A stretch of 38,730 bases of DNA from Dehalococcoidia bacterium (GTDB taxonomy: Bacteria; Chloroflexota; Dehalococcoidia; Bin125). The notes below the pieces were generated by a model, which searched no databases, had not been told where the DNA came from, and saw nothing but the letters and a program-made list of their open reading frames with translations. Made by a program: the position numbers and the translations under genes. The DNA is taken from positions 1 through 38,730 of the forward strand of contig CAUYZA010000002.1 in assembly GCA_963577225.1 (NCBI GenBank). The letters are read 5' to 3'. Below are positions 3,091 through 38,730 of the stretch, piece after piece; the first letter of the stretch is position 1; each line of letters opens with the position of its first letter.

Positions 3091-3209
3091 CTGCTCCTGT
3101 CGTTTCGCCGTCGCATACTACCGCACCGGGTGCCTCAGAGCGGCCCGCCGCGACCTTGGGAAGCGGCGCAGGCCAAACCGTCGACTTGTGCCGCTCGTAC
3201 GAGCCACTA

Positions 3210-23747: not shown

Positions 23748-24812
23748 CTAGAGCTGGAGCTCCGTCGAGAAGTCCGGGATGCCCGCCCAGCGACCAGCAT
23801 CGCCGGCGCGCATGACGGCGATCGTCTTGATCACCTCCGGGTTGGCGATGTGGTGCGGCTGCTGCCCCGCTAGAACCATCAGCACGTTCTCTGCCTGGCG
23901 GCGGTTGCCCTCGATCGCGGTGACCGGCGAGCCGCCTGCGATGTGGGGGGTGAGGATCAGGTTGTCGAGCGTCAAGAGCGGATCTTCCGCGTCAATTGGC
24001 TCCTGCTCCGTCACGTCCAGCGCCGCAGCCCCGATCTCGCCCGTTGTCAGCGCGATGTGCAGCGCCTCCGCATCGACGATTGGGCCGCGCGCGCAGTTGA
24101 TCAGGACCGCGGAGGGCTTCATCCGCTTGAACGCGTCGTTGCTGAAGAGGTGATGCGTTTCATCGGTCGCGGGCGTGTGGACCGTGATGAAGTCGGACTG
24201 GGTCAGCAGCTCGTCGAGCGAGACCAACTCGACGCCGTAGAGGTCGGCCTCCGTCTGCGGCACGTAGGGGTCGTAGGCAACCATGCGAAACGGGCCGAAG
24301 CCGCGGACGCGCGTCGCGAACGCGCGCCCGATCGCGCCGAGACCGACGATGCCCACGGTGCTGCCTGCGATGCGCTTGAGGCCCGGCGCTAGCGCCCGCA
24401 CCTCCTGCGCGGCGCTGCTCCAGCGACCGGCCTTGACGGCCGAATCAAACTCGCGAATCATCCGCGTCGATGCCAGCAACATGGCCATCGCGTGGTCCGC
24501 GACCTCCGTCGTGTTGACGCCTGGCGTGTTGCAGGCCAGCACCCCCAGGCGCGTAGCCACCGGCAGATCGATCGAGTCGACCCCGACGCCGGCGCGGCTG
24601 ACAACCTTGAGCCGGGGGCAGGCTTCGAGCACCTCCGCGTCGGTCAACGGCAGCACGCCGATCATCGCCCCGTCCGCGTCGCGCAGCAGATCGATGTAGT
24701 CCGACTTCGCGGTCTGCGCCCCAACCTGCTGCTCCACCAACTCAATCCCGGCGCCGTCGAAGATGGTGGGATCGGCCATCGGTCGCGCCGCGTTGACGAC
24801 TTTGAGGGGCAT
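23748..24812 (-). CDS. D-isomer-specific 2-hydroxyacid dehydrogenase (PGDH/CtBP-like), NAD-binding
   Basis: 354 aa, ATG 24812. Motifs GSTVGIVGLGAIGRAFA, LINCARGPIVD and LTPHIAG are present. Confidence 0.85.
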   Translation of the reverse strand: MPLKVVNAARPMADPTIFDGAGIELVEQQVGAQTAKSDYIDLLRDADGAMIGVLPLTDAEVLEACPRLKVVSRAGVGVDSIDLPVATRLGVLACNTPGVNTTEVADHAMAMLLASTRMIREFDSAVKAGRWSSAAQEVRALAPGLKRIAGSTVGIVGLGAIGRAFATRVRGFGPFRMVAYDPYVPQTEADLYGVELVSLDELLTQSDFITVHTPATDETHHLFSNDAFKRMKPSAVLINCARGPIVDAEALHIALTTGEIGAAALDVTEQEPIDAEDPLLTLDNLILTPHIAGGSPVTAIEGNRRQAENVLMVLAGQQPHHIANPEVIKTIAVMRAGDAGRWAGIPDFSTELQL

Positions 24813-24895: not shown

Positions 24896-25960
24896 CTAGG
24901 GCTGGTCGTAAACGATGATCGAGCGTCCCTCGATCTCGCCCTCTTCGAGCGCGCGAACGCCCTCGTTGATCTCGTCCAGATTTTCGTAGCGCTTGGAGAC
25001 GAACTGCTCGAGCGGCAGTTGGCCGTCCTTGTACAACTGGACGTAGCGTGGCATGGACTCCGCCGGCCGGGCCGAGCCGCCCATGGAGCCGATCAGCGAT
25101 CGCTCACCGATCGGGAACATCCGCGGCAGCGTCACGTCGCCCTGGCCGATGCCGACGATCACCGCGGTGCCACCGCGTCGCACGCCGAGCACGCCGGACT
25201 TCACGCTCTGCAGCGCCTGCTGCACCGCCGCCTCGACGCCGATCGCGTCGAACGCGAAGTCGACGCCCCCGTCGGTCAGCTCTTTGATCGTCTCCGGTGC
25301 GTCGACGTCCGAGGCGTTCACGACATGCGTCGCGCCGATTTCCTTGGCGTAGCCCAGCTTCCCTTCGACCAGGTCGACGGCGATGATCGGGTCCGCTCCG
25401 GCGATCTTGGCTCCCGCCAGGACGTTCGTTCCCACGCCGCCCACGCCGAACACGGCGACGGACTGTCCGGGCTGCACGTTGGCGGTGTAGAGGGCGGCGC
25501 CCGCGCCGGTGATCACGGCGCAGCCGATGATCGCGGTCACGTCGGTGGGCACGTCGTCTGGCAACGGAACGACCATCTGCTCGTTCAGCAGCGCATGCTC
25601 GGCCCACGTGTAGACGCCCGCATCGTGCTCCTCGCCCTGCCAGCGGAATTTGGTGCCCGCGGGCGTGGTTTCCCCTTCGGGGAGGTCTCGCGGCACGAAT
25701 TGGATCATGACGCGCTCGCCCTCGCTCACGTGCGAGACGTTCGAGCCAGCTTTGAGCACGACGCCCGTGCCCTCATGTCCCAAGAGCAGCGGCATGGGCG
25801 AAAGAGGGTTGTGCAACTGGTGTAGCTGAGAATGACAGATCCCGGTCGCGAACAGCTTGACCAGAACCTCGTCGTCGCCCGGGTCTTCGAGTTCGATCTC
25901 CTCGACCAGCAGCGGGACTCCGTGCTGTGCCTTGATCGCCGCGCGCGTCTTCATCGCCAT
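24896..25960 (-). CDS. zinc-dependent alcohol dehydrogenase (MDR family)
   Basis: 354 aa, ATG 25960 with GAGGAG upstream. Motifs GICHSQLH, GHEGTGVV and VAVFGVGGVG are present. Confidence 0.85.
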   Translation of the reverse strand: MAMKTRAAIKAQHGVPLLVEEIELEDPGDDEVLVKLFATGICHSQLHQLHNPLSPMPLLLGHEGTGVVLKAGSNVSHVSEGERVMIQFVPRDLPEGETTPAGTKFRWQGEEHDAGVYTWAEHALLNEQMVVPLPDDVPTDVTAIIGCAVITGAGAALYTANVQPGQSVAVFGVGGVGTNVLAGAKIAGADPIIAVDLVEGKLGYAKEIGATHVVNASDVDAPETIKELTDGGVDFAFDAIGVEAAVQQALQSVKSGVLGVRRGGTAVIVGIGQGDVTLPRMFPIGERSLIGSMGGSARPAESMPRYVQLYKDGQLPLEQFVSKRYENLDEINEGVRALEEGEIEGRSIIVYDQP

Positions 25961-26084: not shown

Positions 26085-27752
26085 TCAACCCGTGTGCCAG
26101 CCGTATTTCTGCGGCTTGCGACCGGCCCGCGGGTCAATCCGCACGTGGACCAGCGCGGGGCCCTCGCCCTCGTTGGCTTCCGTCATGGCCGGCAGCAGGT
26201 CGTCGGGGTTCTCCACGTAGTAGGTCCGGCCGCCGAAGGCTTCCATCACCTTCTCGTAGCGCGCCTCGGGCAGGTACACGCTGGGCGGCGGCGGTCGGTC
26301 TTTCGGCAGCTCCGCGATGCCGCCGCCGATGCCGTTGTTGTTGATCACGACGACCGTCAACGGCAGCTTGTAGCGGCAGGCCGTCTCAACCTCCATGCCG
26401 CTGAAGCCAAAGGCGGCGTCACCTTGCACCGCGACCGTGCGCCGGTCCGGGTTGGTCACCGCCGCAGCGATGGCGAAACCCAGCCCGATGCCCATCGTGC
26501 CGTAGGTGCCGGCGTCCAAGCGCGACCGGGGCTCGTAGTTGTCGAGCACCGTGCGCCCGATATCCATCGTGTTGGCGCCCTCGCCCACGATGATCGCATC
26601 GCGCGGCATGGTGTCGCGCACGTCCTTGAACACGCGGTAGTAGTTCATCGGGGTGCTGTCGTCGGCCATCATCGAGGCGCTGATTTCGACGTTCTTCTCG
26701 GCCTGCGTGTCGAGCGTGTTCCGCCAGGGTGTCTCTTCCGGGTACTGCCAGGGCTCCGCCTCGAGCGCGGCGTTGATCTGAGCCATGACTGCCCGTCCAT
26801 CGCCCATCAGGCCAACCGCGGCCGGGACGTTGGAGCCGATCTCCTCGGCCACGTTGTCGAGCTGGATCACGCGCACGTCCTCGCGGTAGCGCGGCGCCTT
26901 GCCGAAGTGCAGGATCCAGTTGAGGCGGGCGCCCATCAGGAAGATCACATCGGCGTTCTGAAGCGCGGCCGTGCGAGCCGGCGCGACGGAGAGCGGGTGA
27001 TCGTCGGGCACGACGCCTTTGCCCATCGGCGTCGGCAAGAACGGAAGCTGGGTCTTGTCGATGAAGTCGCGCACCTCGTTCTCGGCACGGGCCCACGCCA
27101 TGCCCTTGCCCACGATGACGAGGGGGTTCTCGGCCGACTTGAGCGTCGCTAGTGCGGCTTCGATATCGGCCTCGGCCACGGTCGGGCGCGGCGGGTCAGG
27201 CACGGTCTGCACGTCCTGCACGTCGGCCAATTCGATCTCGGCGGTGAGGACGTCGTCGGGCAGGTCGAGGTAGGCCGCGCCCGGACGACCGTAGAGCGAG
27301 TAGCGAACGGCCTGCTCAACGTAGTAAGGAATGCGACTCTCGTGCTCAACGGCGTGCGCGTACTTGCAGAACGGCGTCGCGATGTGGACCTGGCGCTCTT
27401 CCTGGAAGGCGCCCATGCCGTTCTGGTTGATGGCGGAGGCGCCACCGATCAGGATCATCGGCCAGCAATTCTGCTGGGCATTAGCCAGCCCAGACAGGGC
27501 GTGCACGACGCCGGGGCCAGAGACCACGATGCAGCTCTGCGGCCGCCCGGTCAGATAACCGGCCGCCTGAGCGGCGTACGAAGCCGACTGCTCGTTACGC
27601 ATGCCGATGTACGTGATGCCGGCCTTTTGCGCGTCGATCGCCAGCTGCGAGACGGGAAATCCCACCACGCCGAACATGTAGTCGGCGCCCTGCTGCTTGA
27701 GGCTTCGCGCCAGCAGCTGGGACCCGGTCATCGTGTCGCTTGTCGTCGTCAT
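26085..27752 (-). CDS. ThDP-dependent oxalyl-CoA decarboxylase / 2-hydroxyacyl-CoA lyase family enzyme
   Basis: 555 aa from ATG 27752. Motifs GVVGFPV, MRNEQSASYAAQAAGY, GARLNWILHFGK and GTMGIGLGFAIAAA...QGDAAFGFSGMEVET...NNNGI (ThDP motif) are present. The tail RIDPRAGRKPQKYGWHTG resembles the HACL1-type C-terminus as I remember it. Confidence 0.8.
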   Translation of the reverse strand: MTTTSDTMTGSQLLARSLKQQGADYMFGVVGFPVSQLAIDAQKAGITYIGMRNEQSASYAAQAAGYLTGRPQSCIVVSGPGVVHALSGLANAQQNCWPMILIGGASAINQNGMGAFQEERQVHIATPFCKYAHAVEHESRIPYYVEQAVRYSLYGRPGAAYLDLPDDVLTAEIELADVQDVQTVPDPPRPTVAEADIEAALATLKSAENPLVIVGKGMAWARAENEVRDFIDKTQLPFLPTPMGKGVVPDDHPLSVAPARTAALQNADVIFLMGARLNWILHFGKAPRYREDVRVIQLDNVAEEIGSNVPAAVGLMGDGRAVMAQINAALEAEPWQYPEETPWRNTLDTQAEKNVEISASMMADDSTPMNYYRVFKDVRDTMPRDAIIVGEGANTMDIGRTVLDNYEPRSRLDAGTYGTMGIGLGFAIAAAVTNPDRRTVAVQGDAAFGFSGMEVETACRYKLPLTVVVINNNGIGGGIAELPKDRPPPPSVYLPEARYEKVMEAFGGRTYYVENPDDLLPAMTEANEGEGPALVHVRIDPRAGRKPQKYGWHTG

Positions 27753-27792
27753 CCGTCTCTCCAATTTTTCGCTGCTGTGTCGAGTGTCGCGT

Positions 27793-29019
27793 CTACCGTT
27801 CGACAGACGCCTTGAACGCTTCTCCGGGCGCGAAGTGCACCACGCCCGCATCGCTGAGTGCGGCCAACTCGGCCTCGCTCAGTCCCAGATCCGTCTGCAG
27901 CACGTCCCTGCTATCGGCCCCCAGGAGCGGCGCCGCTCGCAGTGGTACTTCGGACTCTGACATCCGGATCGGAGATTTCATCAGTGTGATCTCGCCCTCG
28001 ACCGGATGGTCGATCTGCTCAATGAAGCCGCGAGCGGCCAGGTGAGGGTCGTTAAAGACGTCCATCGTGTCGAAGATGCCGCTCGCGGGCACGCCCGACT
28101 CGCAGAGGATTCGCATCGCCTCGTGCTTGTCGTGTTTTGAGGTCCAGGCGCTGATTTCCGCGTCCAGCACGTCGCGGTTCTCGCGACGCAGGCGCTCGCT
28201 CTGGAAGCGCGGGTCAACGAGGAGATCGTCGCGTCCGATCGCGATGCAGAGCTGGTCCCACATCCGCGTGGTGACGACGAGCATGAAGAGGTAGTCGTTC
28301 TCGCCGCCGCCAGCACAGGGGTAGATGCCGCCCGGCGCGCCCGCCTGATGCTTGCGACGACCGACAGGGTTCTCCGCCCACTCGGTCACCCCGGTTGTGC
28401 GCATGAACATCGTCATGACTTCCTGCATCGACAGTTCGATCAGCTGGCCCTTGCCGGTCTGCTGCCGCTGCGCCCACGCGGCCGTGATGGCGAGCGCGGT
28501 CTGCATTCCAGTACCGGTGTCGGCGACGGTGGGACCAGGCTTGATCGGCGGGCCATCGGCCTCGCCCGTGACGGAGATCGCGCCGCTCGCGGCCTGCGCT
28601 AATGGATCGAAGGACTTGTAGCCGCTGTACGGGCCGTCCAAGCCGTAGCCCTTGATCCGCGTGTAGATGATGGCGGGATTGCGCTCGCGCACGACGTCGT
28701 AGCCGATGTCGAGCTTCTCGATCACGCCGGGCCCATAATTCTCGACGAAGACATCGAAGTGAGGCACGAGATCGAGGAACACGTCGCGGCCGCGGCTCTG
28801 CTTCAGATCGAGCACGATGCTGCGCTTATTCGCGTTGTAATTGAGGAAGTACTGCGAGTCGTCGACCCGGGCTGTGAAGACTGTGCGGCCGGGGTCGCCG
28901 CTGGGCGGTTCGACCTTGACGACTTCCGCCCCGAGCCAGGCCAGCATCTGGGTGCTGGACGTCCCGGCCTCGTACTGCGTCATGTCCAAGATTCGCATAC
29001 CCTCGAGCGCTGCGGCCAT
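27793..29019 (-). CDS. family III CoA-transferase, formyl-CoA transferase (Frc)-like
   Basis: 408 aa from ATG 29019 with GGAGGTG 8 nt upstream. The track ORF starts three codons earlier at GTG 29028. Motifs MRILDMTQYEAGTSSTQMLAWLGAEVVKVEPP and GPTVADTGTG are present. It lies 40 nt upstream of the ThDP enzyme gene. Confidence 0.85.
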   Translation of the reverse strand: MAAALEGMRILDMTQYEAGTSSTQMLAWLGAEVVKVEPPSGDPGRTVFTARVDDSQYFLNYNANKRSIVLDLKQSRGRDVFLDLVPHFDVFVENYGPGVIEKLDIGYDVVRERNPAIIYTRIKGYGLDGPYSGYKSFDPLAQAASGAISVTGEADGPPIKPGPTVADTGTGMQTALAITAAWAQRQQTGKGQLIELSMQEVMTMFMRTTGVTEWAENPVGRRKHQAGAPGGIYPCAGGGENDYLFMLVVTTRMWDQLCIAIGRDDLLVDPRFQSERLRRENRDVLDAEISAWTSKHDKHEAMRILCESGVPASGIFDTMDVFNDPHLAARGFIEQIDHPVEGEITLMKSPIRMSESEVPLRAAPLLGADSRDVLQTDLGLSEAELAALSDAGVVHFAPGEAFKASVER

Positions 29020-29199
29020 CGTGCTCACCTCCGGTCCGGGAGGATGCTAGAGCACGCAGCACCTATGAGGGCGGGCTCGCAGGGCGTAGAGCCGGAGCTG
29101 GGGTGACGTTGCGACGGCGACCGGCGGGCGCTTCGAATGCTGTTCGAAGGAAGCGGTTGGTGCACGGATCCCCGTCCCCGGCGTGGGCGAATCTCGGTT

Positions 29200-29493
29200 C
29201 TAGATCTCGACGCGGTCCTTGAGACCCTTCGCGGCCTTGAAGGCGGCCACTTTTTTGGCCGGAATCTGCAGCGTGGCCCCGGTGGCAGGGTTTCGGCCGG
29301 TGCGAGCGGCCCGATGGCGAGTCTCGAACTTGCCGAATCCAGCAATCGAGACCTCGCGGTCCGCATCCAACTCCGCAGCGATGATGCCCCGACTGGCATC
29401 CGTGCTGAAGATCGCCTCGACGACCTCCAACGCCTTCGCCTGGGTCAAGTCTGTTTGTCCCGCGAGCTTCGCAGCCATCTCAGTTTTGTTCAC
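29200..29493 (-). CDS. HU family DNA-binding protein
   Basis: 97 aa, GTG 29493 with GAGGAGG upstream. It begins MNKTEMAAKLAG and contains GFGKFETRHRAARTGRNPATGATLQIPAKKVAAFKAAKGLKD. Confidence 0.9.
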   Translation of the reverse strand: MNKTEMAAKLAGQTDLTQAKALEVVEAIFSTDASRGIIAAELDADREVSIAGFGKFETRHRAARTGRNPATGATLQIPAKKVAAFKAAKGLKDRVEI

Positions 29494-29765
29494 GGCGCTC
29501 AGCCTCCTCTGTCCAGTTGCTCTACTGCTTGAACACTATAACCTTTGGTTCTCCGAAGCGACGGTGCCGCGTTGATTCTTGGGAGTTTTTCCCATAATCG
29601 GGACGTCCGCGATCTGCGTATTGCGCGCGCAGGACACGGATAGAGCGCTGCTCAAGGGGGATCTGCGGAGGCTCTCGACGGCCGCTGGCGCTAAGGCGCG
29701 TCCCAGCCCTTGCCCCGGATCCCGGCTGACTCGTAGACGCGGCCGCCGACCACGCTGAAGTCTTC

Positions 29766-29939
29766 TCAAGTGTCCAGGACGCGCCGTACCGAGGCGTAAT
29801 CGGCCGGGCGGAGGTCTCGTCGGATGCTGGTGCCGTTGAGGTGCCAGATGGCAGCGCTGAAGCGGTGCGCGAGGCCAGCCACGGAGGGCAGATGCCCAAT
29901 CCGGGCAGCGCCGGCGGCGGCCTGCGAAGTCTGCACCAT
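29766..29939 (-). CDS. short hypothetical ORF (57 aa), possibly a gene relic
   Basis: ATG 29939 has GAGGAG 6 nt upstream and GC3 is high. Coding-like sequence continues in the same frame beyond TGA 29766-29768 for 24 more codons to TAG 29691. See the corresponding finding. Confidence 0.3.
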   Translation of the reverse strand: MVQTSQAAAGAARIGHLPSVAGLAHRFSAAIWHLNGTSIRRDLRPADYASVRRVLDT

Positions 29940-30071
29940 GCTGCACTCCTCGTCGCCCGCTGAAGCCGACACGTCAGTGGTAGCCAAGCTCGGAGGGGCG
30001 AGGCCAGATCCAGACGGTATCAGGCTTGGGTCCATCTGGCCGGAGCCCTGGCGCGTACAGCAGCTGTTGCC

Positions 30072-30530
30072 GTGGTGCGGCATCCGCTTGCCCCCAGGCG
30101 GTTCGGGCGTCAGGGTGTCCAGCGGTTGGCGAGTTCAACGGGGGAGCCGGTGGTTTCACGAGCTTTTGATCGCGCGACGCTGGCATCCGTGGTGCCAGCG
30201 ACTGATGTCGTGGCGCTGCGCCGCCAACTCGACGCGCTCCGACTGCTACTGCAGGCGGATGGGGTCGAGGACTCCAGCGCTGATGTCGCGCGGCTTGTGC
30301 GCGAACTGGATGCGATCGGCATCCGCCTGCGCGGCGCCGCCGATGGCGAGAGCGTGGCCGACATCGCTGCGCTGGTCGGCGAGCTGCGCAACGTGGCCGG
30401 GCGCAGCCTGCTCCATGCGCACGTGGAGCAGGCGCAGGCGCGCGTCCAGGTCGCCGTACGCGGCCGCATCGCTGCCTGGCGCGAGACTGCACCCGCGCTC
30501 GATCTGACCTCGCAGCGCGCTCCCGACTGA
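30072..30530 (+). CDS. hypothetical helical protein, start uncertain
   Basis: GC3 is high in this frame from about 30160 onward (VVALRRQLDALRLLLQADGVEDSSADVARLVRELDAIGIRL...). The overlapping minus-strand ORF 30110..30586 is Arg/Ser-rich shadow. GTG 30150 is an alternative start. Confidence 0.55.
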   Translation: MVRHPLAPRRFGRQGVQRLASSTGEPVVSRAFDRATLASVVPATDVVALRRQLDALRLLLQADGVEDSSADVARLVRELDAIGIRLRGAADGESVADIAALVGELRNVAGRSLLHAHVEQAQARVQVAVRGRIAAWRETAPALDLTSQRAPD

Positions 30531-30540
30531 GGCCGAAGCG

Positions 30541-30717
30541 CTATCCGATCGCGCCGAGCAGCTGCGCCGAGACTGTGACCGTGCAATGGGGGCAGGCCAG
30601 CAGCGCGACGATGGCCTCGCGGCTGGACTGTGGCGCGGACTCGGGCAGCACCTCGATCACGCGGACGCGGCCGATCGCCTTCTTGCAGACCGGGCAGCGG
30701 GCGCTTGGCTCAGACAT
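30541..30717 (-). CDS. 58-aa Cys4 zinc-ribbon protein ending in Gly (not in the ORF track)
   Basis: My own translation is MSEPSARCPVCKKAIGRVRVIEVLPESAPQSSREAIVALLACPHCTVTVSAQLLGAIG-stop. AGGAG lies 7 nt upstream of ATG 30717 and GC3 is high. It starts 55 nt downstream of the LLM gene stop on the same strand. Confidence 0.65.
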   Translation of the reverse strand: MSEPSARCPVCKKAIGRVRVIEVLPESAPQSSREAIVALLACPHCTVTVSAQLLGAIG

Positions 30718-30772
30718 CGTGAAACTCCTGCTTTCGCCGTTTGCGTGGACGGTGCGACGCGAGCGCGGTCGC

Positions 30773-31888
30773 CTAGCTGGGATTCCCGCTGGGCGCGCCA
30801 GAGGTCTGCTGCAGCTTGGGCAGCACCTGTTCCCCCATCAGCCGCATGCTTTCCATGATCTTGTCGTGCGGCAGCCCACCGAATTGGACCCAGGTCATGA
30901 CCTGGTCGACGCCCATGCTCTCGTAGCGCTTGATTGTCTCGACTAAATCATCCGGCGTCCCGATGGCCAGGACACCCTTCCTGGCGCGTTCGGCGACGGA
31001 CTCCGGCGCGGCGGCTCCGGTCCGGGATTGTTCGGTCAGGTACTGGTACGAGGCGGCGTTCTTCGTTGCGCCCGGTTCGGCCCAGGGCAGGAACAACTCG
31101 GCCGCGAGCTCCGCCGAGCGCGTGACGGCAGGTTCCGCCACGGCAAGCGCCTCCGCGTTCGTTTCCGCGCAATAGGTCTGCATCAGGACGGCGACCTGAT
31201 CATTGATGAAGTCGCCGATCGGGTTGGGGTCGGCGATGCCCGCGCGATAAGCGGCGACGCGTGGCTCCACCTCATCTGGCGTCGCCGTGACGAAGCCCAA
31301 CAGGCCCAGGCCGTGGCGACCCGCCTTCGCGAACGTCTCGGGATTGGTGCCGGCCAGCCAGAGTGGGGGGTGCGGCTTCTGCAGCGGCTTGGGCACGACG
31401 TGCCGCTCGGGGATTTGGTAGTACGTGCCGTCGAAGCTCAAAGGCTCGTCGCGCCAGGCCCGCTTCACGATCTCGATACCCTCCGCCCACTGGGCCTGCG
31501 TCTCGTCGGGTTCGACCTGGAACCCGTCCAACTCTTGCAGCGTGACGGCGCGGCCGGTGCCGAGGTCGACCCGGCCGCCGCTGAGGATGTCGAGTACCGC
31601 CGTCCGCTCCGCGACGCGCACGGGATGGTTGAAGTTCTTCGGCAGCAGCGCGATGCCGTGGCCGAGGCGGATCCGCGATGTGCGCTGGCTCAATGCGCCG
31701 AAGAAGACTTCTGGCGCCGAACTGTGCGACCAGCCCGGCAGCATGTGATGCTCGACGGCCCAGACATAGTCCCAGCCCAGTTCATCGGCGAGGACGATTT
31801 GCTCCATCGCCTCCGCATAGGCCCGGGCTTCGTATCCTTCCGACCAGGGTGGGGGAATTTGAATCTCGTAGAGCAGGCCGAACTTCAT
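30773..31888 (-). CDS. LLM-class flavin-dependent oxidoreductase (luciferase-like monooxygenase)
   Basis: 371 aa from ATG 31888 with GGAGGG upstream. It begins MKFGLLYEIQIPPPW and contains WDYVWAVEHHMLPGWSHSSAPEVFFGAL and RLGHGIALLP. The upstream part of the track ORF is rejected. Confidence 0.85.
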   Translation of the reverse strand: MKFGLLYEIQIPPPWSEGYEARAYAEAMEQIVLADELGWDYVWAVEHHMLPGWSHSSAPEVFFGALSQRTSRIRLGHGIALLPKNFNHPVRVAERTAVLDILSGGRVDLGTGRAVTLQELDGFQVEPDETQAQWAEGIEIVKRAWRDEPLSFDGTYYQIPERHVVPKPLQKPHPPLWLAGTNPETFAKAGRHGLGLLGFVTATPDEVEPRVAAYRAGIADPNPIGDFINDQVAVLMQTYCAETNAEALAVAEPAVTRSAELAAELFLPWAEPGATKNAASYQYLTEQSRTGAAAPESVAERARKGVLAIGTPDDLVETIKRYESMGVDQVMTWVQFGGLPHDKIMESMRLMGEQVLPKLQQTSGAPSGNPS

Positions 31889-31973
31889 CGTGATCCCTCC
31901 AGACGTCGCGGGCAGTCTAACGGCGCTCGCCGCGCCTGCGGCGCTATCCTGCGGGTCGATTTGGAGGTGCCGC

Positions 31974-32936
31974 ATGACAAGCCAGACGAACGCCCAGCTC
32001 GGCGAGGGCGAAATGCAATACGAGGCGCTCAGCGAGTGGGAAGAGCTGCCGGACGGGATCACGTTGGTGGAGACGCCCGGCGTCGCCGTGGGCGCCGACG
32101 ACACGGTCTACCTGATGACGCGCAACACGGAGCACCCGGTGATGGTGCTCCGCCCCGACGGTGGCTGGATCCGCTCCTTTGGTGCGGGCCACTTCTCCGA
32201 TCGCACGCACGGGATCTGGGTGGCGCCCGACAGCACGCTGTACTGCGCGGACGATGGCACCCACACGATCACTCGCTGGAGCCCCGACGGCGAACTCTTG
32301 CAGACGATCGGTGAGACAAATGCCCCGGCGCCGCGTTGGAGTGGACAGCCGTTCAACCGGCCGACACACTGCGCCGTCTCGCCGATCAGCGGCGACCTGT
32401 TCATCACGGACGGCTACGGCAACTCCTGCATCCACCGCTTCAGCCCCGACGGTGAGCACAAGGCGACCTGGGGAGAGCCCGGCATCGATGCGGGGCAATT
32501 CATTCGGCCGCACAACATCGCCATCGATGAAGAGGGGCTGCTCTACGTCGCGGATCGCGAATGTCATCGCGTGCAGGTGTTCCGCGAAGACGGCACGTTC
32601 GTCGCGATGTGGAACAACATTCACCGGCCGGATGGGCTGACCCTCGCGGCCGACGGCCTGATCTACATCGGAGAGCTGAATGGCATCGCCGGTGTAGACG
32701 ACGCGCCCGGGCTGGGGCATCGGGTCAGCGTCTACAGCCGAGACGGCCAACGCGTGGCGTTGTTCGGCGCCGAGGATGAAGGTGAGGGGCCGGGCGAGTT
32801 CATCGCACCCCACGGCATCGCCGTCGACTCACGCGGCGACATCTATGTCGGCGAGGTCGCCAACACGATCCGCGGCCGGGAGCTCGATCCGCCGCGCGAG
32901 CTGAAGACGCTTAAGAAGTTGCGACGGACCTCGTAA
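31974..32936 (+). CDS. NHL-repeat beta-propeller, peptidyl-alpha-hydroxyglycine alpha-amidating lyase (PAL)-like
   Basis: 320 aa from ATG 31974 with GGAGGTG upstream. FITDGYGNSCIHRFSPDG and YVADRECHRVQVFREDG mirror the PAL motifs DGYCNSRI and ADRENGRIQ, recalled from memory. No signal peptide is visible. Confidence 0.75.
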   Translation: MTSQTNAQLGEGEMQYEALSEWEELPDGITLVETPGVAVGADDTVYLMTRNTEHPVMVLRPDGGWIRSFGAGHFSDRTHGIWVAPDSTLYCADDGTHTITRWSPDGELLQTIGETNAPAPRWSGQPFNRPTHCAVSPISGDLFITDGYGNSCIHRFSPDGEHKATWGEPGIDAGQFIRPHNIAIDEEGLLYVADRECHRVQVFREDGTFVAMWNNIHRPDGLTLAADGLIYIGELNGIAGVDDAPGLGHRVSVYSRDGQRVALFGAEDEGEGPGEFIAPHGIAVDSRGDIYVGEVANTIRGRELDPPRELKTLKKLRRTS

Positions 32937-34144: not shown

Positions 34145-36972
34145 ATGCAACGCCTCGCCGGCCGGTATGGGATGCTGTTCGGCGCTCTGATTCTCTTGAC
34201 CCTGACTGGAGCGCCAAGCTCACCATCGCTTCTTGCGTAGGCCCCCCCGCCCAGTATCGATTCCATCAATCCGCTCAGCGGCCCGGCGGCTGGGGGGGCT
34301 AGCGTCACAATCGCCGGCAGTAATCTCGGCGGCGTCGTGACGGTGACGTTCGGGGGTGTGCCAGCGACTGACATTGTCGGAGTGAATGACTCGACCATCA
34401 CGGCGACGTCGCCCGCGCATGCGGCCGGCATCGCGGACGTGGTCGTCATCACGGCGGCCGACACCAGCGCCAACAGGGCCGCGGACCACTTCACCTACAT
34501 CGACGCAGGGGTGACCCTGACCGAGGCTGGTGGGTCGACGCTCCTGACTGAAGGCAGCGGGGCGGCGGAACACTACTCGGTCGCCCTCACCGCCGCGCCA
34601 CTGAGCAACGTGACGATCAACGTTGCCCCTGACAACCAGCTGACTACCGACCTGGGAAGTCTCGCCTTCACGCCCGCGAATTGGAATGAAGCACAGACGG
34701 TCGCCGCCACCGCCGCCACCGCCGCCACCGCCGCCACCGCCGCCACCGCCGCCACCGCCGCCACCGCCGCCACCGCCGCCACCGCCGCCACCGCCGCCAC
34801 CGCCGTCGGCGCCGGCGTGGTTGAGGGTTCCCATTTCGGGACGATCCAACATGCGGCCACGGGCGGCGGATACGGCGGTGTGCCGATCGGCGACGTGGTC
34901 GCCACGATCGCCGACAACGACGTGGCATCCGTCGTCATCGTCCAGTCGGGTGGGTCGACGAACGTCACGGAGGGCGGCGCTGCCGATAGCTATACGGTCG
35001 TGCTGGGCGCTGCCCCGACTGCCCAGATCTCGATCGCCGTAAACGGCACGTTCCAGGCGACGGCGAGCCCCAACAACCTGAGCTTCACCAGCGCGAACTG
35101 GGCGATCGCCCAGACCGTGACCGTGAGCGCGGTAGACGACGCCGTGCAGGAGGGGCCCACGCCACCACGCTCTCCCATACCGCCTCTGGCCCGGGCTTCG
35201 ATGGATTGGCGATCGCCAATGTGATCGTCAACGTCACGGACAACGACACGGTGACCGGCCAAGTCCTCGTGACTCACTCTGGCGGATCGCCCAACGTCTC
35301 GGAGAGTGGCGGCAGCGACAGCTACACGGTCCAGCTCTCTCTTGAGCCGAGCGGCCCGGTGGCCGTTGCGGTGGTGGATAGCGCGCAGCAACTGCTTGTG
35401 GACAAGACGGCGCTCTTCTTCACGACCGCGAACTGGAATGTGGCTCAGACGGTGACGGTGACCGCGCTTGACGATCCGACTGTCGAAGGGACTCATGTGA
35501 TCGGTCTGCGGCACGTTGCGACAGGCGGCGGCCACGACGGGACTCCGGCCAAGACGATCGCCGTCTCGATCAGCGACAACGACGTGGCGGGCGTGATCAT
35601 TCCCGCGTCCGACGCCGGCCGCCTCACGTTCACCCCGATCGATGATGCCTGGATCGGCGAGGCCGACCCGAAGAAGAACCACGGCAACGCGAGCCGTATC
35701 GAAGTGGACCAGTCGCCGGTCAAGGAGGGGCTGCTGCGCTTCAACGTCAGCGGCATCCCCGGGCGCGCCGTGCTGAACGCCGTGCTGCGCCTCCAGGTGC
35801 GCGACGGCTCGCCGGGCGGCGGCCGATTCTTCGGCGCGGCGCACAATGCCTGGCAGGAAGAGAACGTGACCTGGAACTTGGCACCGGCGGTCTCGGTCCC
35901 CTTCCTGGGACAGCTGGGATCGGTCAGCCCGGGGCAGGCCGTGGAGCTGGACGCCTCCTCGTTGGTCACCGGCGACGGGCTGGTCACCGTCCGCATCTTG
36001 GCGACCTCATCGAATCGGGTGGAGTACGCCTCGAAGGAGGATCAGGCTGGTGCGCTGGCCCCGGAGCTGATCGTAGATCTTGCGCCAACGCCGGCCCCCG
36101 CCGTCAGTGAAGGCGGCGCCAGCGACAGCTACACGATTCGCCTGGCGAGCCAGCCGGTTGGCAACGTCACGATCGTGATGTTGCCCGACGCGGACCTCAC
36201 GACAACGCCGACTCAGCTGATCTTCGCGAGCGCGAACTGGAGCCAGCTCCAGCTCGTCACCGTCAGCGCCGTGGACGACGACGAAACTGAAGGAGCACAC
36301 ACGGCTCGGATCGCGCACACCGCGATCTGGCCGGGTGCGACGAATGTCAGCGTCCCCGACGTGACGGTCACGATCGAGGACAACGATGTGCCGTCCCTCA
36401 TCGTCACGGAGACAGGCAACGACACCGCTGTCGTGGAAGGCGGTGTGGGGGACTCCATCCTCGTGGCGCTTGGCGCGAAGCCGAGCGGTTCGGTGACGGT
36501 GCAGTTCTCATCCGGTGGCGAGCTGGCGGCCACGCCAAGCACACTCATCTTCACGACGGTGAACTGGCAGACGCCGCAGACCATCCAGGTCATGGCGATC
36601 GATGACACCCAGGTGGAAGGGGACCACGGCGGCAGCTTTACGCTAAGCGTTTCAGGCGGAGGCTTCAGCGGCGGCGTGCTGGCCACGGTGTTCGCGACGA
36701 TCGTCGACAACGACTTTGTCGAGCTGATCCCGCTGCGGCAGGGCCTCGAGCTGATCGGCTGGTTCGGCCTGCCGACGACGACCCGGGCAATCCTCGACTC
36801 AAATCCGCGGATCGTGCGCATTTGGGTCTGGAAGGTGTCGACGCAGAGCTGGCTGATCGACAGCGATGAGCTGCCCGACGGCCTGCGGGCGGTAATCGTG
36901 ATTGAGCGCGGTCAGGGCCTGTTCATCGTCAGCTCGCGCGCGACCACGTTGGAGGTCACGGTGGGCGGATAG
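34145..36972 (+). pseudogene. large secreted adhesin-like protein (signal peptide, IPT/TIG, five ~100-aa beta-sandwich modules, DNRLRE-like insert, C-terminal module), interrupted by an in-frame TAG and one frameshift
   Basis: The gene starts at ATG 34145 with MQRLAGRYGMLFGALILLTLTGAPSSPSLLA. TAG 34238-34240 follows, and the same frame continues APPPSIDSINPLSGPAAGGASVTIAGSNLGGVVTVTFGGVPATD, which is IPT/TIG. Five modules follow the pattern FT.ANW...QTVTV.A.DD...EG.H....DND. The track ORFs 34337..35224 and 35206..36972 join if one base is added at G4C3 35152-35158, giving ...AVDDAVQEG-HATTLSHTASGPGFDGLAIANVIVNVTDND. Confidence 0.75.
34703..34805 (+). repeat. perfect tandem repeat (GCCGCCACC) x11 plus partial unit, in-frame (Ala-Ala-Thr)n
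   Basis: I counted 11 identical 9-nt units in 34703-34801, then GCCG. In the gene frame it reads QTV-(AAT)11-AVGAG. In other frames it produces the poly-Pro, poly-Gly, VAA and WRR track ORFs. Confidence 0.95.
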
Positions 36973-37008: not shown

Positions 37009-37036
37009 AAAGGCCGGAGCATCTGCTCCGGCCTTT
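37009..37036. terminator. bidirectional rho-independent-type terminator between convergent surface-protein genes
   Basis: AAAGGCCGGAGC (37009-37020), an ATCT loop, then GCTCCGGCCTTT (37025-37036), a 12-bp perfect stem. It is followed by TTT on the plus strand and TTTT on the minus strand. It lies 37 nt after stop 36972 and 45 nt after the corrected minus-strand stop 37081. Confidence 0.75.
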
Positions 37037-37080: not shown

Positions 37081-38730
37081 CTAGGTGTCGAAACTCAGAG
37101 TCGCTGAATTCCCCAAGATGAGGAACAAGCTGGTGCGACCGGCCAGTTCGGTGATTTGGTTGGTGGCCGCTGGAGCCGTTGGGCGCCAGGCGAGCCAGCG
37201 TTGCGTCGCGGCGTCGAAGGCGAAGGCTGCCGTCAGCCCATCGAGCTCGCCAGAAGCTGCTCGAGCGACACGGCCCCCGTGTAGGCGATGAGGTTCGAGC
37301 CGCTCGGGAGTGACACGTCGACGGTGCCGCCGATCGGCGTGAGATTGAGCAGCGTACTGCTGAAGGCGCCCGAGGTTTGGATGAACAGGCCATCGCCCGT
37401 CTGCACCTGATCGAGCGAGTTGAGGAACTCCAAGGCGCCCACCGTGAAGCGCTCGTACCTCTGCGTCGCCGAATTGAAGCGGAAGATTGCCACAACCTTG
37501 GATCCGAGGGAGCCGGCGAGATCCGCCGCGCTGATCTCCAGCCCGGTGTAGGTGATCGCGTTGAAGCCCGCGGCGAAATCCAGGGCCAAGCCCGGCAGCA
37601 CGAAGTCAATGTTCCAGCCGGCGAGTTGGGTCGGTAGCTCGCCGCCGACCTCGGCCGGAATGAGTCCGTCCAAGCTGTTGGCGGAGTCGAAGATCACTCC
37701 CTCCGGCGGGCGGTCCCAGCCATCGCTGAACGAGAAGCCGGTCGGCACGATGACGCGCAAGCAGCCATCGCCGAGGGTGGCAAGCTGCGCACCGGAACCG
37801 TAGCCGAGGCCCAGCGAGGTGGCTTCATCGAGCGCCGCGAGCTGGAAGTCGGCGTTGCTGAGCCCGGAGGCGCCGCAGTTGCTGTCCACCTGAGACGTTC
37901 GGATCTGGGCGCTGGCTGGCCCGGGGCCGTTGAAGTTGATGATCGGCGGACTGTCACCCAAGGCGCTGATGAACGGCACGTGGACCGCGCTGATGGCCGG
38001 ATCGTGGCCGCCACTGAGGATGGGGTTGTGCGCCCCGCTCAGGAGCGGGTTGTGCACGACGCTAACGATGGGGTCATGGAAGTCGCTGATGGTCGGGTCG
38101 TGGAAGGCACTCTCGATGGCCAGATGCGTCGCGCTGGCGATCGGTTCGTGCGGCGCACTCAGGTTCGCCTGGTGAGCGTTTCTGGTGATCGGTTGGTGCA
38201 GCTGACTGTCGGCCGCGGCGTGAGCACCGCTCAGCGCCTGGCTGTGCAGATCGCTGAGTGCGGCGACATGGGCGTTGCCGCTTATTGCCGGATCGTGGAT
38301 TCTGCTCTGGAGCGGGTCATGGATGGCGCTCTGCGCCGCGTCGTGCAAGCCGCTCACGACGGGGTCGTGCGCGGCGCTGAGGTTCGCGCCGTGCACGATC
38401 GAGATCACCGGGTCATGCAGCACGCTGAAGGTGGGGTCGTGCGCGCCGCTGAGCACCGCGTCGTGCAGGCCGCTGAGGAAGGGCGGGTGAACGCCGCTCA
38501 CAGCGGGGTCGTGGCCGCCGCTGAGGACGACGGAGTGTGCTCCGCTGAGCACGGCGTCATGTTGGCCGCTCAGCTCTGCCGTGTGCAGCACGCTGTCGGC
38601 CACCTCATGGCCGCCTGACAGGAACGGGGTGTGCCCGCCGCCGACGGCGCTCTGCGCCGGATCGTGCACCGCGCTGAGGGCCGGATCGTGGGCGCCGCTG
38701 ATCGCGGGATCGTGCGTCGCACTCAAGACC
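37081..38730 (-). pseudogene. partial (5' end outside window) repeat-rich surface protein: His-x4-Ser octapeptide array, Cys-containing domain, two C-terminal modules; frameshifted near 37237
   Basis: Track ORF 37233..38726 is still open at the window edge, so its TTG start is an artefact. After TGA 37233 the adjacent frame reads LTAAFAFDAATQRWLAWRPTAPAATNQITELAGRTSLFLILGNSATLSFDT and stops at 37081-37083. This completes a second copy of the module seen at about 37368-37568. Confidence 0.75.
37959..38730 (-). repeat. degenerate 24-nt coding periodicity (octapeptide H-D-P-x-[ILV]-S-[GA]-x), at least 31 units
   Basis: His falls at ORF residues 5, 13, 21, 32, 40, 48 ... 241, 249. Of the 30 spacings, 28 are exactly 8 residues. 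Ser lies 5 residues after His in 30 of 31 units. Confidence 0.9.

What the first reader, a model, noticed from the sequence alone, without database searches (positions are those of the whole stretch)
37959..38730. At least 31 phased His-x4-Ser octapeptide repeats in a surface-protein gene, with no repeat family I can name
On the minus strand, His recurs at ORF residues 5, 13, 21, 32, 40, 48 ... 241, 249. Of the 30 spacings, 28 are exactly 8 residues, one is 11 and one is 9. Ser follows His by 5 residues in 30 of 31 units and is nearly always encoded by AGC. Position +4 is mostly aliphatic and +1/+2 is mostly D/N-P. The consensus is H-D-P-x-[ILV]-S-[GA]-x. At the DNA level the 24-nt period is degenerate and no two units are identical. 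That points to an old, maintained array rather than recent slippage. GC3 is high only in this frame. The frame is still open at nt 38730, so the array continues beyond the window. It does not look like pentapeptide, hexapeptide (LbH), RTX nonapeptide, ice-nucleation 16-mer, collagen or PE/PPE repeats. A strictly phased His/Ser ladder suggests a solenoid with a metal-binding or pH-sensing face, but that is inference only.
Basis: partly seen in the sequence, partly recalled or inferred. Interest (0 to 1): 0.8.

Follow-up and report, generated by a model that had tools for sequence, protein, structure and literature searches.

The report
Undescribed His/Ser repeat surface protein
The phased His-x4-Ser repeats are real: they are the tail of a roughly 125-unit array in a giant secreted bacterial protein, and such arrays form an undescribed repeat class that sat beside the same unknown partner gene at all 14 loci examined, although this genome's copy is broken by frameshifts.

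Summary
The minus-strand ORF has 31 in-phase His, with 28 spacings of 8 residues, and Ser at +5 in 30 of 31 units. An overlapping contig shows this is the last quarter of a ~125-unit array. The gene has about 1,375 codons: signal peptide, H-x4-S-x2 array, then a ~300-aa C-terminal region. No curated family explains it. Pfam gives only period-mismatched matches to a grass antifreeze beta-roll model. An exhaustive profile search of 1.84 billion proteins finds 86 array proteins, in Chloroflexota and Alphaproteobacteria.

First, only the hexapeptide H-x4-S/T is invariant; units range from 6 to 12 residues. Such arrays lay next to one undescribed extracytoplasmic protein family (at least 868 clusters) at 14 of 14 loci. 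Second, the window's gene carries three single-base frameshifts, one inside the window. Two are reproduced in a third assembly, so this copy is probably recently inactivated.

AlphaFold2 gave no solenoid (pLDDT 30-38). My best reading is a multivalent His/Ser track that the partner binds or modifies, forming a stalk for C-terminal binding modules. That mechanism is inferred, not shown.

The parts
37959..38730 (-). Last 31 H-x4-S-x2 octapeptide units of an array of about 125 units. The frame is open at the window end.
   Evidence: Translation; phase statistics and shuffles; codon and DNA-unit statistics; upstream continuation on L001 and L029.
37236..37958 (-). Non-repeat C-terminal region in frame with the array (241 aa, GDSPP...SSMG). 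It holds a conserved ~130-aa domain (LGLG..GA.L / ILP.DF.F..GWD.PP.G.IFD / DFFLP) and the first ~90-aa 'FRFNSATQ..' module. It ends at a premature stop at 37233-37235.
   Evidence: Alignment with 8 homologues; AlphaFold2 pLDDT 75-89 for residues about 410-480 of P0001; no Pfam, NCBIfam or PDB match.
37244..37250 (-). Frameshift site. One base is missing relative to the homologues (GCG|AGC; GCGGAG would restore the frame).
   Evidence: Three-frame translation. In tblastn, P0009 residues 2-314 align in frame -2 and residues 315-376 in frame -1. The same sequence is present in L001 and in JGI contig L029.
37081..37248 (-). Displaced-frame tail: the last 55 codons (ELDGLTAAFAFDAATQRWLAWRPTAPAATNQITELAGRTSLFLILGNSATLSFDT) and the true stop TAG at 37081-37083. 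This is the second copy of the ~90-aa C-terminal module.
   Evidence: It aligns with the C-termini of P0002-P0005, P0008 and P0009.
37012..37033 (.). GC-rich hairpin (GGCCGGAGC-AGAT-GCTCCGGCC) followed by TTTT on the minus strand, about 50 nt after the repaired stop and between the two convergent genes. It is a likely terminator.
   Evidence: Read directly from the sequence. The simple terminator scan did not list it, so it rests on reading the sequence only.

Best explanation
SHOWN.
- The 772 bases are the last 31 units of an array of about 125 units.
- The gene has about 1,375 codons and encodes a secreted or cell-surface protein of a Dehalococcoidia-type (Chloroflexota) bacterium. Its layout is a signal peptide, an H-x4-S-x2 array of about 1,000 residues, then a ~300-aa C-terminal region made of one conserved domain and two ~90-aa modules.
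- The array belongs to an undescribed repeat class. Its only invariant feature is the hexapeptide H-x4-S (rarely T). Octads are the common form, but related arrays have units of 6/7, 7, 8/8/11 or 9-12 residues.
- Genes with such arrays lie directly next to a gene of an equally undescribed extracytoplasmic protein family. That partner is a lipoprotein in Chloroflexota and carries a signal peptide in Alphaproteobacteria. The pairing held at 14 of 14 loci examined.
- In this genome the gene carries three single-base frameshifts. Two of them are seen in three assemblies.

INFERRED.
- Each unit is a small Pro/Gly-bounded turn that presents one His and one Ser.
- The array is a multivalent track that the partner binds or, more likely, modifies on the invariant Ser, with His serving for recognition or as a general base.
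- The product is a long, regular, possibly decorated stalk that holds the C-terminal binding modules away from the cell.
- The copy in the window is probably a recently inactivated gene.
For: Gene structure:
- Upstream ORFs on L001 continue the array in two other frames and begin with a signal peptide.
- Three single-base repairs give one open 1,375-codon frame. It has 125 in-phase His, 107 of them at spacings of exactly 8.

Family:
- Eight homologues share the same array and C-terminal region.
- An intact 859-aa orthologue exists on L022.
- Named members are Dehalococcoidia MAG proteins.

Repeat class:
- An hmmsearch with a 4-unit profile against 1.84 billion representatives gave 86 hits at E<=1e-3 and 16 at E<=1e-30.
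- These are multidomain secreted proteins: zincin+VWA, subtilase+FN3, LamG, PG_binding_1+DUF11, and Cys-rich or dockerin-like.
- They include proteins of cultured Microbaculum and Rhodobium orientis.
- In partner-linked arrays 95-100% of all His sit in H-x4-[ST], whatever the unit length.

Partner linkage:
- The 385-aa lipoprotein gene upstream of the array on L001 has homologues next to arrays at L002, L003/L004 and L005, and at the proteobacterial loci L018-L020.
- Seven partner homologues chosen only for contig length all have an adjacent H-x4-S array.
- The partner family has at least 868 clusters, no Pfam, NCBIfam or PDB relative, and 58 invariant columns rich in D/E/R/K/N/Y.

Selection on the motif:
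- Ser(+5) is AGY in 110 of 119 units against a 40% background.
- Orthologous units are 40% identical against 21% for non-orthologous units.

Turn model (weak):
- In both AlphaFold2 models the only secondary structure in the array is a set of one-turn helices, which in the second model fall on P-x-phi-S.

Frameshifts:
- locate them. JGI contig L029 reproduces two of them with no gaps.
- Long intact ORFs fill the rest of the window.
Against: - No experiment or structure shows that the partner touches the array. Adjacency is the only link.
- ATP-dependent chemistry is unlikely outside the cytoplasm, so the nature of any modification is open.
- Subtilase-type array proteins (L009-L011) have no partner within 3 kb.
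- Several features would also fit a self-folding solenoid that needs no partner: the strict unit length, the insertions confined to the S...H linker, the unit-specific conservation and the 16-residue alternation of hydrophobicity.
- The three assemblies may derive from overlapping read sets, so the frameshifts are not proven independent observations.
Confidence: 0.45

Rival explanations
1. The array folds on its own into a regular beta-solenoid or beta-roll, about two octads per coil, with stacked His and Ser ladders. It acts as a rigid rod whose His face binds metal or senses pH. The partner would then be a chaperone, an anchor or unrelated.
For: - The unit length is strict: 107 of 124 spacings are exactly 8, and the extra residues always sit between Ser and the next His.
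- Orthologous units are about as conserved as the globular domain.
- Hydrophobicity at +3 alternates with a two-unit period: autocorrelation is -0.26, +0.26, -0.11, +0.25, and the lag-2 identity has z=3.3.
- Relatives have super-periods of 16, 24, 27 and about 32 residues.
- The Pfam beta-roll model LbR_Ice_bind scores 37.6 bits on the repaired protein and 66 bits on the L022 orthologue.
Against: - Two AlphaFold2 runs, one of them with an in-register alignment of 27 rows, gave pLDDT 30-38, pTM 0.12-0.29 and no strands. AlphaFold2 is reported to over-predict beta-solenoids for perfect repeats (bioRxiv 10.1101/2024.10.30.621056).
- Partner-linked arrays keep H-x4-S with units of 6 to 12 residues.
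- The LbR match places 89 residues on 77 profile columns, so the periods differ (8 against 7). No PDB chain, grass ice-binding protein included, matches at E<=10.
- Other arrays of the same system hit the unrelated Cornifin model at 105 bits, so such matches follow period and composition.
- Pro occupies +2 in 64% of units.
Confidence: 0.25
2. The array is an intrinsically disordered or semi-flexible spacer. Its regularly spaced His (with Asp at +1) bind Zn, Ni, Cu or Co, as in the prion octarepeat or histidine-rich proteins. It would serve as a metal sponge or a metal-stiffened tether, and Ser would not be modified.
For: - AlphaFold2 confidence is low throughout the array.
- There is one His per 8 residues, Asp at +1 in 62% of units, and abundant Gly, Pro, Ser and Ala.
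- Established knowledge (not tested here): His-bearing octarepeats of PrP bind Cu2+.
Against: - Ser is as invariant as His and is codon-locked, which metal binding does not explain.
- Asp is absent from the basic variants such as HRPRGSIV and HKFPKSV.
- The strict unit length and the unit-specific conservation are unusual for disordered regions.
- The partner linkage is left unexplained.
Confidence: 0.15
3. The array is an ice-binding beta-roll related to the grass antifreeze proteins, as the Pfam name would suggest.
For: LbR_Ice_bind matches 6 of 9 family members (best E 3.3e-7). The match rises above the gathering score for the repaired protein and for the L022 orthologue.
Against: - The window fragment is below threshold at 20.3 bits against 30.
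- The periods do not match.
- No strands are predicted.
- The solved grass protein is not matched at E<=10.
- Ice-binding faces are usually Thr, Ser or Asn arrays, not His (my knowledge).
- The gene neighbourhood is ordinary heterotroph metabolism.
Confidence: 0.03
4. The array is an artefact: a mis-assembled or non-coding repeat that only looks like an ORF.
For: - The window ends inside the array.
- The gene has frameshifts.
- Gene callers placed spurious antisense ORFs over the array.
Against: - Three assemblies agree base for base over the window part.
- Codon-position GC is typical of coding sequence and the other five frames have stops.
- The frame runs into a C-terminal domain shared with 8 or more homologues.
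- Intact orthologues and relatives exist.
Confidence: 0.02

Closest known systems
Pfam PF21300 LbR_Ice_bind (grass antifreeze left-handed beta-roll, x-x-N-x-V-x-G heptads)
   Same: - Both are short-period tandem repeats with an aliphatic-Ser-Gly core ('VSG') and a polar ladder residue.
- It is the only curated model that matches: 20.3 bits for the window fragment, 37.6 for the repaired protein and 66 for the L022 orthologue.
   Different: - The period is 8 rather than 7, with 89 residues laid on 77 profile columns.
- The invariant residues are His and Ser at fixed i/i+5, not Asn, Val and Gly.
- No beta-roll is predicted.
- There is no similarity to any solved chain.
- The organisms are bacteria, not Pooideae grasses, and the gene is partner-linked.
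Ser-phased stalk repeats of Gram-positive surface proteins with dedicated modifiers (staphylococcal SD repeats with SdgA/SdgB; serine-rich repeat glycoproteins with GtfA/B). This comparison rests on my own knowledge.
   Same: - Both have very long arrays with an invariant Ser between a secretion signal and a binding domain.
- Both have a co-encoded dedicated protein.
- Both are proposed to act as a stalk.
   Different: - Here the unit is H-x4-S plus a linker, not SD or SxSx.
- His is invariant.
- The partner is extracytoplasmic and unrelated to known glycosyltransferases.
- No modification has been shown.
Prion protein octarepeat (PHGGGWGQ)
   Same: Both are 8-residue units with exactly one His each, which makes them candidate metal-binding sites.
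   Different: - The prion repeat has 4-5 copies, not about 125.
- It has no invariant Ser.
- It is a disordered eukaryotic tail.
- Pfam gave no prion-repeat match.
- Basic variants of the present class lack any acidic co-ligand.
Bacterial ice-nucleation protein repeats (nested 8/16/48-residue periods)
   Same: Both have hierarchical 8- and 16-residue periodicity, conserved Ser/Thr positions and very long arrays in a surface protein.
   Different: - The INP Pfam model gave no match even at E<=10.
- The invariant residues differ.
- AlphaFold2 does not build a solenoid here.
Pfam PF02389 Cornifin/SPRR (eukaryotic octapeptide repeats)
   Same: Both have an 8-residue period rich in Pro, Ser and Gln. 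Arrays of this class in L028 and P0010 exceed the model's gathering score, at 105 and 44.6 bits.
   Different: - Cornifin is a eukaryotic cornified-envelope protein with no His/Ser phase.
- The window family scores only E 0.078.
- The match is best read as a false positive driven by period.

Membership tests
Pfam PF21300 LbR_Ice_bind | Whole-sequence score at or above the gathering score (30 bits) | tested here: inconclusive
   Scores are 20.3 bits for the window fragment and 21.7 for P0001, both below threshold, and 30.7 for P0002. The repaired 1,361-aa protein scores 37.6 bits, but no single stretch is significant. The L022 orthologue scores 66 bits. The score grows with the number of units.
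Pfam PF21300 LbR_Ice_bind | 7-residue repeat x-x-N-x-V-x-G (14-15 residues per coil) | tested here: not met
   The period is 8, with 107 of 124 His spacings exactly 8. The best match lays 89 residues on 77 profile columns. The invariant residues are His and Ser, not Asn, Val and Gly.
Pfam PF21300 LbR_Ice_bind | Left-handed beta-roll fold, and similarity to the solved grass protein | tested here: not met
   AlphaFold2 gave pLDDT 30-38 with no strands. Foldseek found nothing. No PDB chain matched at E<=10. A low-confidence model cannot exclude the fold.
Pentapeptide, hexapeptide (LbH), RTX nonapeptide, ice-nucleation, collagen and PE/PPE repeats | Match to the corresponding Pfam model | tested here: not met
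   The Pfam scan of the window protein at E<=10 returned only LbR_Ice_bind. The scan of all 9 family members at E<=1 returned none of these models.
Prion octarepeat and Cornifin/SPRR octapeptide repeats | Match to the Pfam model, and eukaryotic context | tested here: not met
   There is no prion-repeat match. Cornifin reaches only E 0.078 in one family member. The strong Cornifin scores on L028 and P0010 track the 8-residue period.
Proposed new class: H-x4-S arrays with partner gene | Tandem units in which nearly every His is followed by Ser/Thr at +5 | tested here: met
   This holds for 30 of 31 units in the window and 119 of 125 in the whole gene. It holds for 95-100% of His in eight other partner-linked arrays.
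Proposed new class: H-x4-S arrays with partner gene | N-terminal secretion signal on the array protein | tested here: met
   L001 has MRRLLLVVGLVAVALSAVFVA upstream of the window. Signal peptides are also present in P0006, P0013, L003 and L022. They were judged by eye; no predictor was run.
Proposed new class: H-x4-S arrays with partner gene | Adjacent gene of the 'PSENYYYF ... GNIRL ... FDESG ... DGPFDQLxDN' family | tested here: met
   The partner lies at L001 6280-7434, divergent and about 150 bp from the array gene's start, 2.6 kb beyond the window end. The same pairing is seen at 13 further loci. L005 retains only a partial partner.
Proposed new class: H-x4-S arrays with partner gene | Physical or enzymatic interaction between partner and array | not testable with these tools
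   Only gene adjacency is available. Biochemistry, or at least a complex prediction, is needed.

The most novel reading that the evidence does not exclude
H-x4-S arrays and their conserved extracytoplasmic partner form a previously unrecognised two-component cell-surface system. It is widespread in Chloroflexota, with at least 868 partner clusters, and is also present in Alphaproteobacteria. In this reading the partner is a new kind of enzyme that covalently modifies or cross-links the invariant Ser outside the cytoplasm, with the neighbouring His acting as recognition element or general base. Up to about 200 sites per protein would be converted into a decorated fibre.
Probability: 0.3. Interest if true: 0.85.

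Novelty: new variant of a known kind. Interest (0 to 1): 0.66.

Why it matters
Short-period repeats with fixed functional residues have repeatedly defined new structural or chemical principles. Leucine-rich, pentapeptide, RTX, ice-nucleation and SD repeats are examples.

Here a repeat with only two invariant residues, His and Ser five apart, recurs up to about 200 times per protein. It is found in giant secreted proteins of abundant but poorly known bacteria (Dehalococcoidia/Chloroflexota), and it sat beside the same unknown protein family at every locus checked. Neither component has a Pfam, NCBIfam or PDB relative, so two sizeable families are currently invisible to annotation.

The arrays are also mis-annotated in practice:
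- Gene callers break them into pieces or place antisense ORFs over them.
- Pfam labels some of them as a grass antifreeze beta-roll or as Cornifin.

Cultured carriers exist (Microbaculum, Rhodobium orientis), so whether this is a new extracytoplasmic protein modification, a metal-binding fibre or a new solenoid can be tested directly.

Tried and rejected
- Frame 1 of the stated coordinates is full of stops. The correct frame starts at 38729.
- NCBIfam, PHROGs and PDB sequence searches of the window protein found nothing useful. A profile of the family against PDB also found nothing.
- AlphaFold2 on P0001 with 9 sequences left the array unmodelled. A second run on the 13 terminal units, with an in-register 27-row alignment, gave pLDDT 38. 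Foldseek on both models found nothing below E 0.2. The second Foldseek job was wasted on a low-confidence model.
With P0001 it found no relative among GTDB representative genomes, so the source organism was placed only through its homologues.
- A search with the C-terminal-region profile returned just three Dehalococcoidia 'hypothetical proteins'.
- The partner family gave no PDB, Pfam or NCBIfam relative. The only PDB hit (2gcu, E 0.038) is not credible.
- I noticed that the partner motif D-x4-N followed by I-D resembles a kinase catalytic loop. I rejected this as evidence because it rests on memory, the spacing to the only invariant Lys is wrong, and ATP is not expected outside the cytoplasm.
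- Four literature searches found no description of such repeats.
- I considered that the frameshifts were assembly errors. That appears true for the long-read loci L003/L004, where the two assemblies differ by single-base indels at different places. It is unlikely for the window, where a third assembly reproduces two of the three sites.
- I considered phage or plasmid origin and rejected it. The neighbours are chromosomal metabolic genes.
Full report
1. THE OBSERVATION

The minus-strand frame that starts at window 38729 is open for 498 codons, down to a stop at 37233-37235. Its first 257 residues are 31 units of H-x4-S-x2. His spacings are 28 x 8, one 11 and one 9. Ser sits at +5 in 30 of 31 units. 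Shuffled sequences give on average 1.5 spacings of exactly 8, and at most 8 in 10,000 trials.

All 31 DNA units differ, with mean identity 56%. TRF sees only short degenerate stretches of period 24 or 48 nt. Codon-position GC is 0.72/0.48/0.86, and each of the other five frames has stops.

2. THE WHOLE GENE

The window's protein exists in the protein collection as a 519-aa call, P0001. Its contig (L001, ENA ERZ27247690) overlaps the window identically for 3,945 nt and extends 10 kb beyond the window end. The array continues upstream in two other reading frames. It starts with a signal peptide, MRRLLLVVGLVAVALSAVFVA.

The frame changes at two points by one extra base: GAAC for GAC near L001 8117, and GGCCCAC for GGCCAC near L001 9934. 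A third shift lies inside the window near 37247, where GCGAG stands for GCGGAG. The homologues' last ~55 residues are encoded in the neighbouring frame, down to a TAG at 37081-37083. A GC-rich hairpin with a T-run follows at 37012-37033.

Repairing these three bases gives one open frame of 1,375 codons. It holds 125 phased His, 107 of them at spacings of exactly 8. Gene callers had instead placed two long antisense 'genes' over the array.

3. ARE THE FRAMESHIFTS REAL?

A JGI metagenome contig (L029) matches the window at 100% over 4,029 nt. It matches L001 at 99.95% over 5,764 nt with no gaps, so it carries two of the three shifts. The rest of the window is filled with long intact ORFs that have normal Pfam domains. 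The shifts are therefore specific to this gene, and one of them lies outside the repeat.

The repaired frame has no stop in 1,375 codons, so any inactivation is recent. I conclude that this copy is probably a young pseudogene or a split gene. The caveat is that the three assemblies might share reads.

Related loci are also damaged. L003 and L004, the same locus in two long-read assemblies, share an IS1595-containing insertion inside the array. They differ from each other by single-base indels, which look like sequencing errors. Intact relatives do exist:
- P0006, in a Dehalococcoidia MAG.
- An 859-aa orthologue on L022.
- A 1,411-aa protein on L028.

4. KNOWN FAMILIES

For the window protein, NCBIfam, PHROGs and PDB sequence searches give nothing. 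Pfam gives one sub-threshold match, LbR_Ice_bind, the grass antifreeze beta-roll, at 20.3 bits against a cut-off of 30. Six of nine family members match weakly, and P0002 reaches 30.7 bits. The repaired full protein sums to 37.6 bits without any single significant stretch. The very regular L022 orthologue reaches 66 bits.

I do not accept this as membership, for four reasons:
- The match lays 89 residues on 77 model columns, so an 8-residue period is being fitted to a 7-residue model.
- The invariant residues differ.
- No PDB chain, the grass protein included, is matched even at E<=10.
- Other arrays of the same genetic system score 105 bits on the unrelated eukaryotic Cornifin octapeptide model.

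These models respond to period and composition. No pentapeptide, hexapeptide, RTX, ice-nucleation, collagen or prion-repeat model matches.

5. HOW WIDE IS THE REPEAT CLASS?

I built a 32-column profile of four units from 55 in-register blocks (A2). I searched it exhaustively against 1.84 billion representative proteins. It found 86 proteins at E<=1e-3, 37 at E<=1e-10 and 16 at E<=1e-30.

Apart from the window's own family, these are large secreted multidomain proteins:
- a zincin plus VWA protein with two arrays (148 units);
- a 2,719-aa subtilase with FN3 domains, intact in three Dehalococcoidia/Chloroflexota species;
- a LamG protein of a Chloroflexi MAG;
- a multi-pass membrane protein with a weak mannosyltransferase-like match;
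- Cys-rich, dockerin-like proteins;
- proteins with PG_binding_1 (plus DUF11 in one) followed by basic arrays such as HRPRGSIV or HKKYKSSW.

Some of these belong to cultured Alphaproteobacteria, Microbaculum spp. and Rhodobium orientis. There they are annotated only as 'peptidoglycan-binding protein' or 'hypothetical protein', and their length varies between strains from 1,374 to 1,502 aa. His and Ser are fixed across the class, while the other positions range from acidic to basic.

6. THE PARTNER GENE

Divergently upstream of the array gene on L001 lies a 385-aa lipoprotein gene (lipobox LAAC) with no Pfam match. Homologues at 59-61% identity lie next to the array gene in L002, L003/L004 and, in part, L005. 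Homologues at 34-36% identity (E 1e-45 to 1e-50) lie immediately downstream of the otherwise unrelated array genes of Microbaculum sp. FT89, M. marinum and a Proteobacteria MAG.

The reverse test gave the same answer. The partner family has at least 868 clusters, all unnamed or named only 'hypothetical protein'. I chose seven members only because their contigs were long. All seven have a phased H-x4-S array in the adjacent gene.

Unit lengths differ between these arrays: 8, 7 (HEDGPSG), alternating 6 and 7, 8/8/11, and 9-12 (HDPAQS plus a linker). Yet 95-100% of all His remain in H-x4-[ST]. That makes 14 of 14 loci, in varying orientation, with no other conserved neighbour.

The partner has 58 invariant columns, many of them D, E, R, K, N or Y (PSENYYYF, GNIRL, FDESG, GFAF, DGPFDQLxDN, GxID). 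It has no relative in PDB, Pfam or NCBIfam.

7. STRUCTURE OF THE ARRAY

AlphaFold2 with the family alignment gave pLDDT of about 30 across the array and 75-89 for part of the C-terminal region. A second run covered the 13 terminal units, with an in-register alignment of true orthologues plus sliding windows. It gave pLDDT 38, pTM 0.12 and no strands. In both models the only secondary structure in the array was a set of one-turn helices, which in the second model fall on P-x-phi-S. Foldseek found nothing. AlphaFold2 is reported to over-predict beta-solenoids for perfect repeats (bioRxiv 10.1101/2024.10.30.621056), so its failure here counts mildly against a solenoid.

Several features argue for order rather than plain disorder:
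- The unit length is strict, and extra residues occur only between Ser and the next His.
- The last 13 units are positionally conserved among six proteins. Identity at the six variable positions is 40% for orthologous units and 21% for non-orthologous units, and one unit reaches 83%.
- Hydrophobicity at +3 alternates with a two-unit period.
- Ser(+5) is AGY in 110 of 119 units against a 40% background. I read this as evidence that Ser has been required continuously since the units diverged.

The structural state is unresolved.

8. MECHANISM

Shown: this is a secreted giant repeat protein, the H-x4-S motif is invariant, a partner gene is conserved next to it, and this copy is disrupted.

Inferred: the array is a multivalent His/Ser track that the extracytoplasmic partner binds or modifies. 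Ser is the likeliest target, and His the recognition element or general base. The result would be a long, regular stalk carrying C-terminal binding modules.

The convergent neighbour at 35206-36972 is a CBM96 protein. Its C-terminus is weakly similar to the same ~90-aa module. This suggests the module is a shared anchoring or binding unit.

The rivals are a self-folding solenoid with His/Ser ladders, a disordered metal-binding tether, an ice-binding roll and an artefact. They are weighed in their own entries.

9. NOVELTY AND VERDICT

Neither the repeat nor the partner is in any curated library or paper that I could search. The general kind, a tandem-repeat surface protein with a dedicated neighbour gene, is familiar. 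The motif, the partner and any chemistry between them are not. I rate it a new variant of a known kind. I give a 30% chance that it is a new extracytoplasmic modification or assembly system. Interest is 0.66.

Noticed in passing
window 37081-37250 (minus strand); L001 about 8117 and about 9934: The gene carries three single-base frameshifts, two +1 and one -1, each a one-base change in a short homopolymer. The stop at 37233 is therefore premature, and the true stop is at 37081-37083. Two of the shifts recur in JGI contig L029.
   Followed up: yes
L001 6280-7434 (minus), 2.6-3.8 kb beyond the window end: A conserved 385-aa lipoprotein gene of an undescribed family with at least 868 clusters. 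It was adjacent to an H-x4-S array at all 14 loci examined, in two phyla.
   Followed up: yes
window 37980-38618 (+); L001 8230-9948 and 7521-8189 (minus): Long antisense ORFs lie over the array, and public gene calls include two of them (572 and 222 aa). These are artefacts of the GC-rich periodic sequence and hide the real gene.
   Followed up: partly
window 35206-36972 (+): The convergent neighbour is a 588-aa protein with a CBM96 domain. Its last ~60-75 residues resemble the array protein's C-terminal ~90-aa module (BLASTP E 0.049; tblastn with P0002 E 2.9e-4). The module may be a shared surface-anchoring or binding unit.
   Followed up: partly
L003 7781-9950 and L004 (same locus): An insertion of about 2.2 kb interrupts the orthologous array. 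It carries an IS1595-family transposase and a small DUF732-like gene, and a poly-G tract of 11 or more bases lies at its left junction (about L003 7743).
   Followed up: partly
L028 10371-14606; P0010; L022 5145-7724: Pfam models give above-threshold scores on these bacterial arrays: Cornifin/SPRR at 105 and 44.6 bits, and LbR_Ice_bind at 66 bits. They are likely false positives caused by short-period repeats and are relevant to curation.
   Followed up: partly
P0049, P0111-P0113 (Rhodobium orientis): The same array protein is 1,374, 1,440, 1,446 and 1,502 aa in different Rhodobium orientis records. This suggests that the number of repeat units varies between strains or assemblies.
   Followed up: no
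P0017 (891 aa): A multi-pass membrane protein with a weak DolP-mannose mannosyltransferase-like match (E 0.0033) is fused to a C-terminal H-x4-S array. This is a possible hint that the arrays are linked to extracytoplasmic glycosylation.
   Followed up: no
window 23748-24812 and 24896-25960 (minus); 26085-32104: The downstream one of two tandem 354-aa ORFs is a zinc-dependent alcohol dehydrogenase; its equal-length neighbour was not scanned. A TPP enzyme, a family III CoA-transferase and a luciferase-like monooxygenase lie alongside. I read this as the gene content of an organic-matter-degrading Chloroflexota chromosome, not a mobile element.
   Followed up: no
window 3156-4169 and 4034-5062 (+): Two same-strand ORFs in different frames overlap by about 135 nt, and both have lower GC3 (0.75-0.77). 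This may be another frameshifted gene or a true overlap.
   Followed up: no
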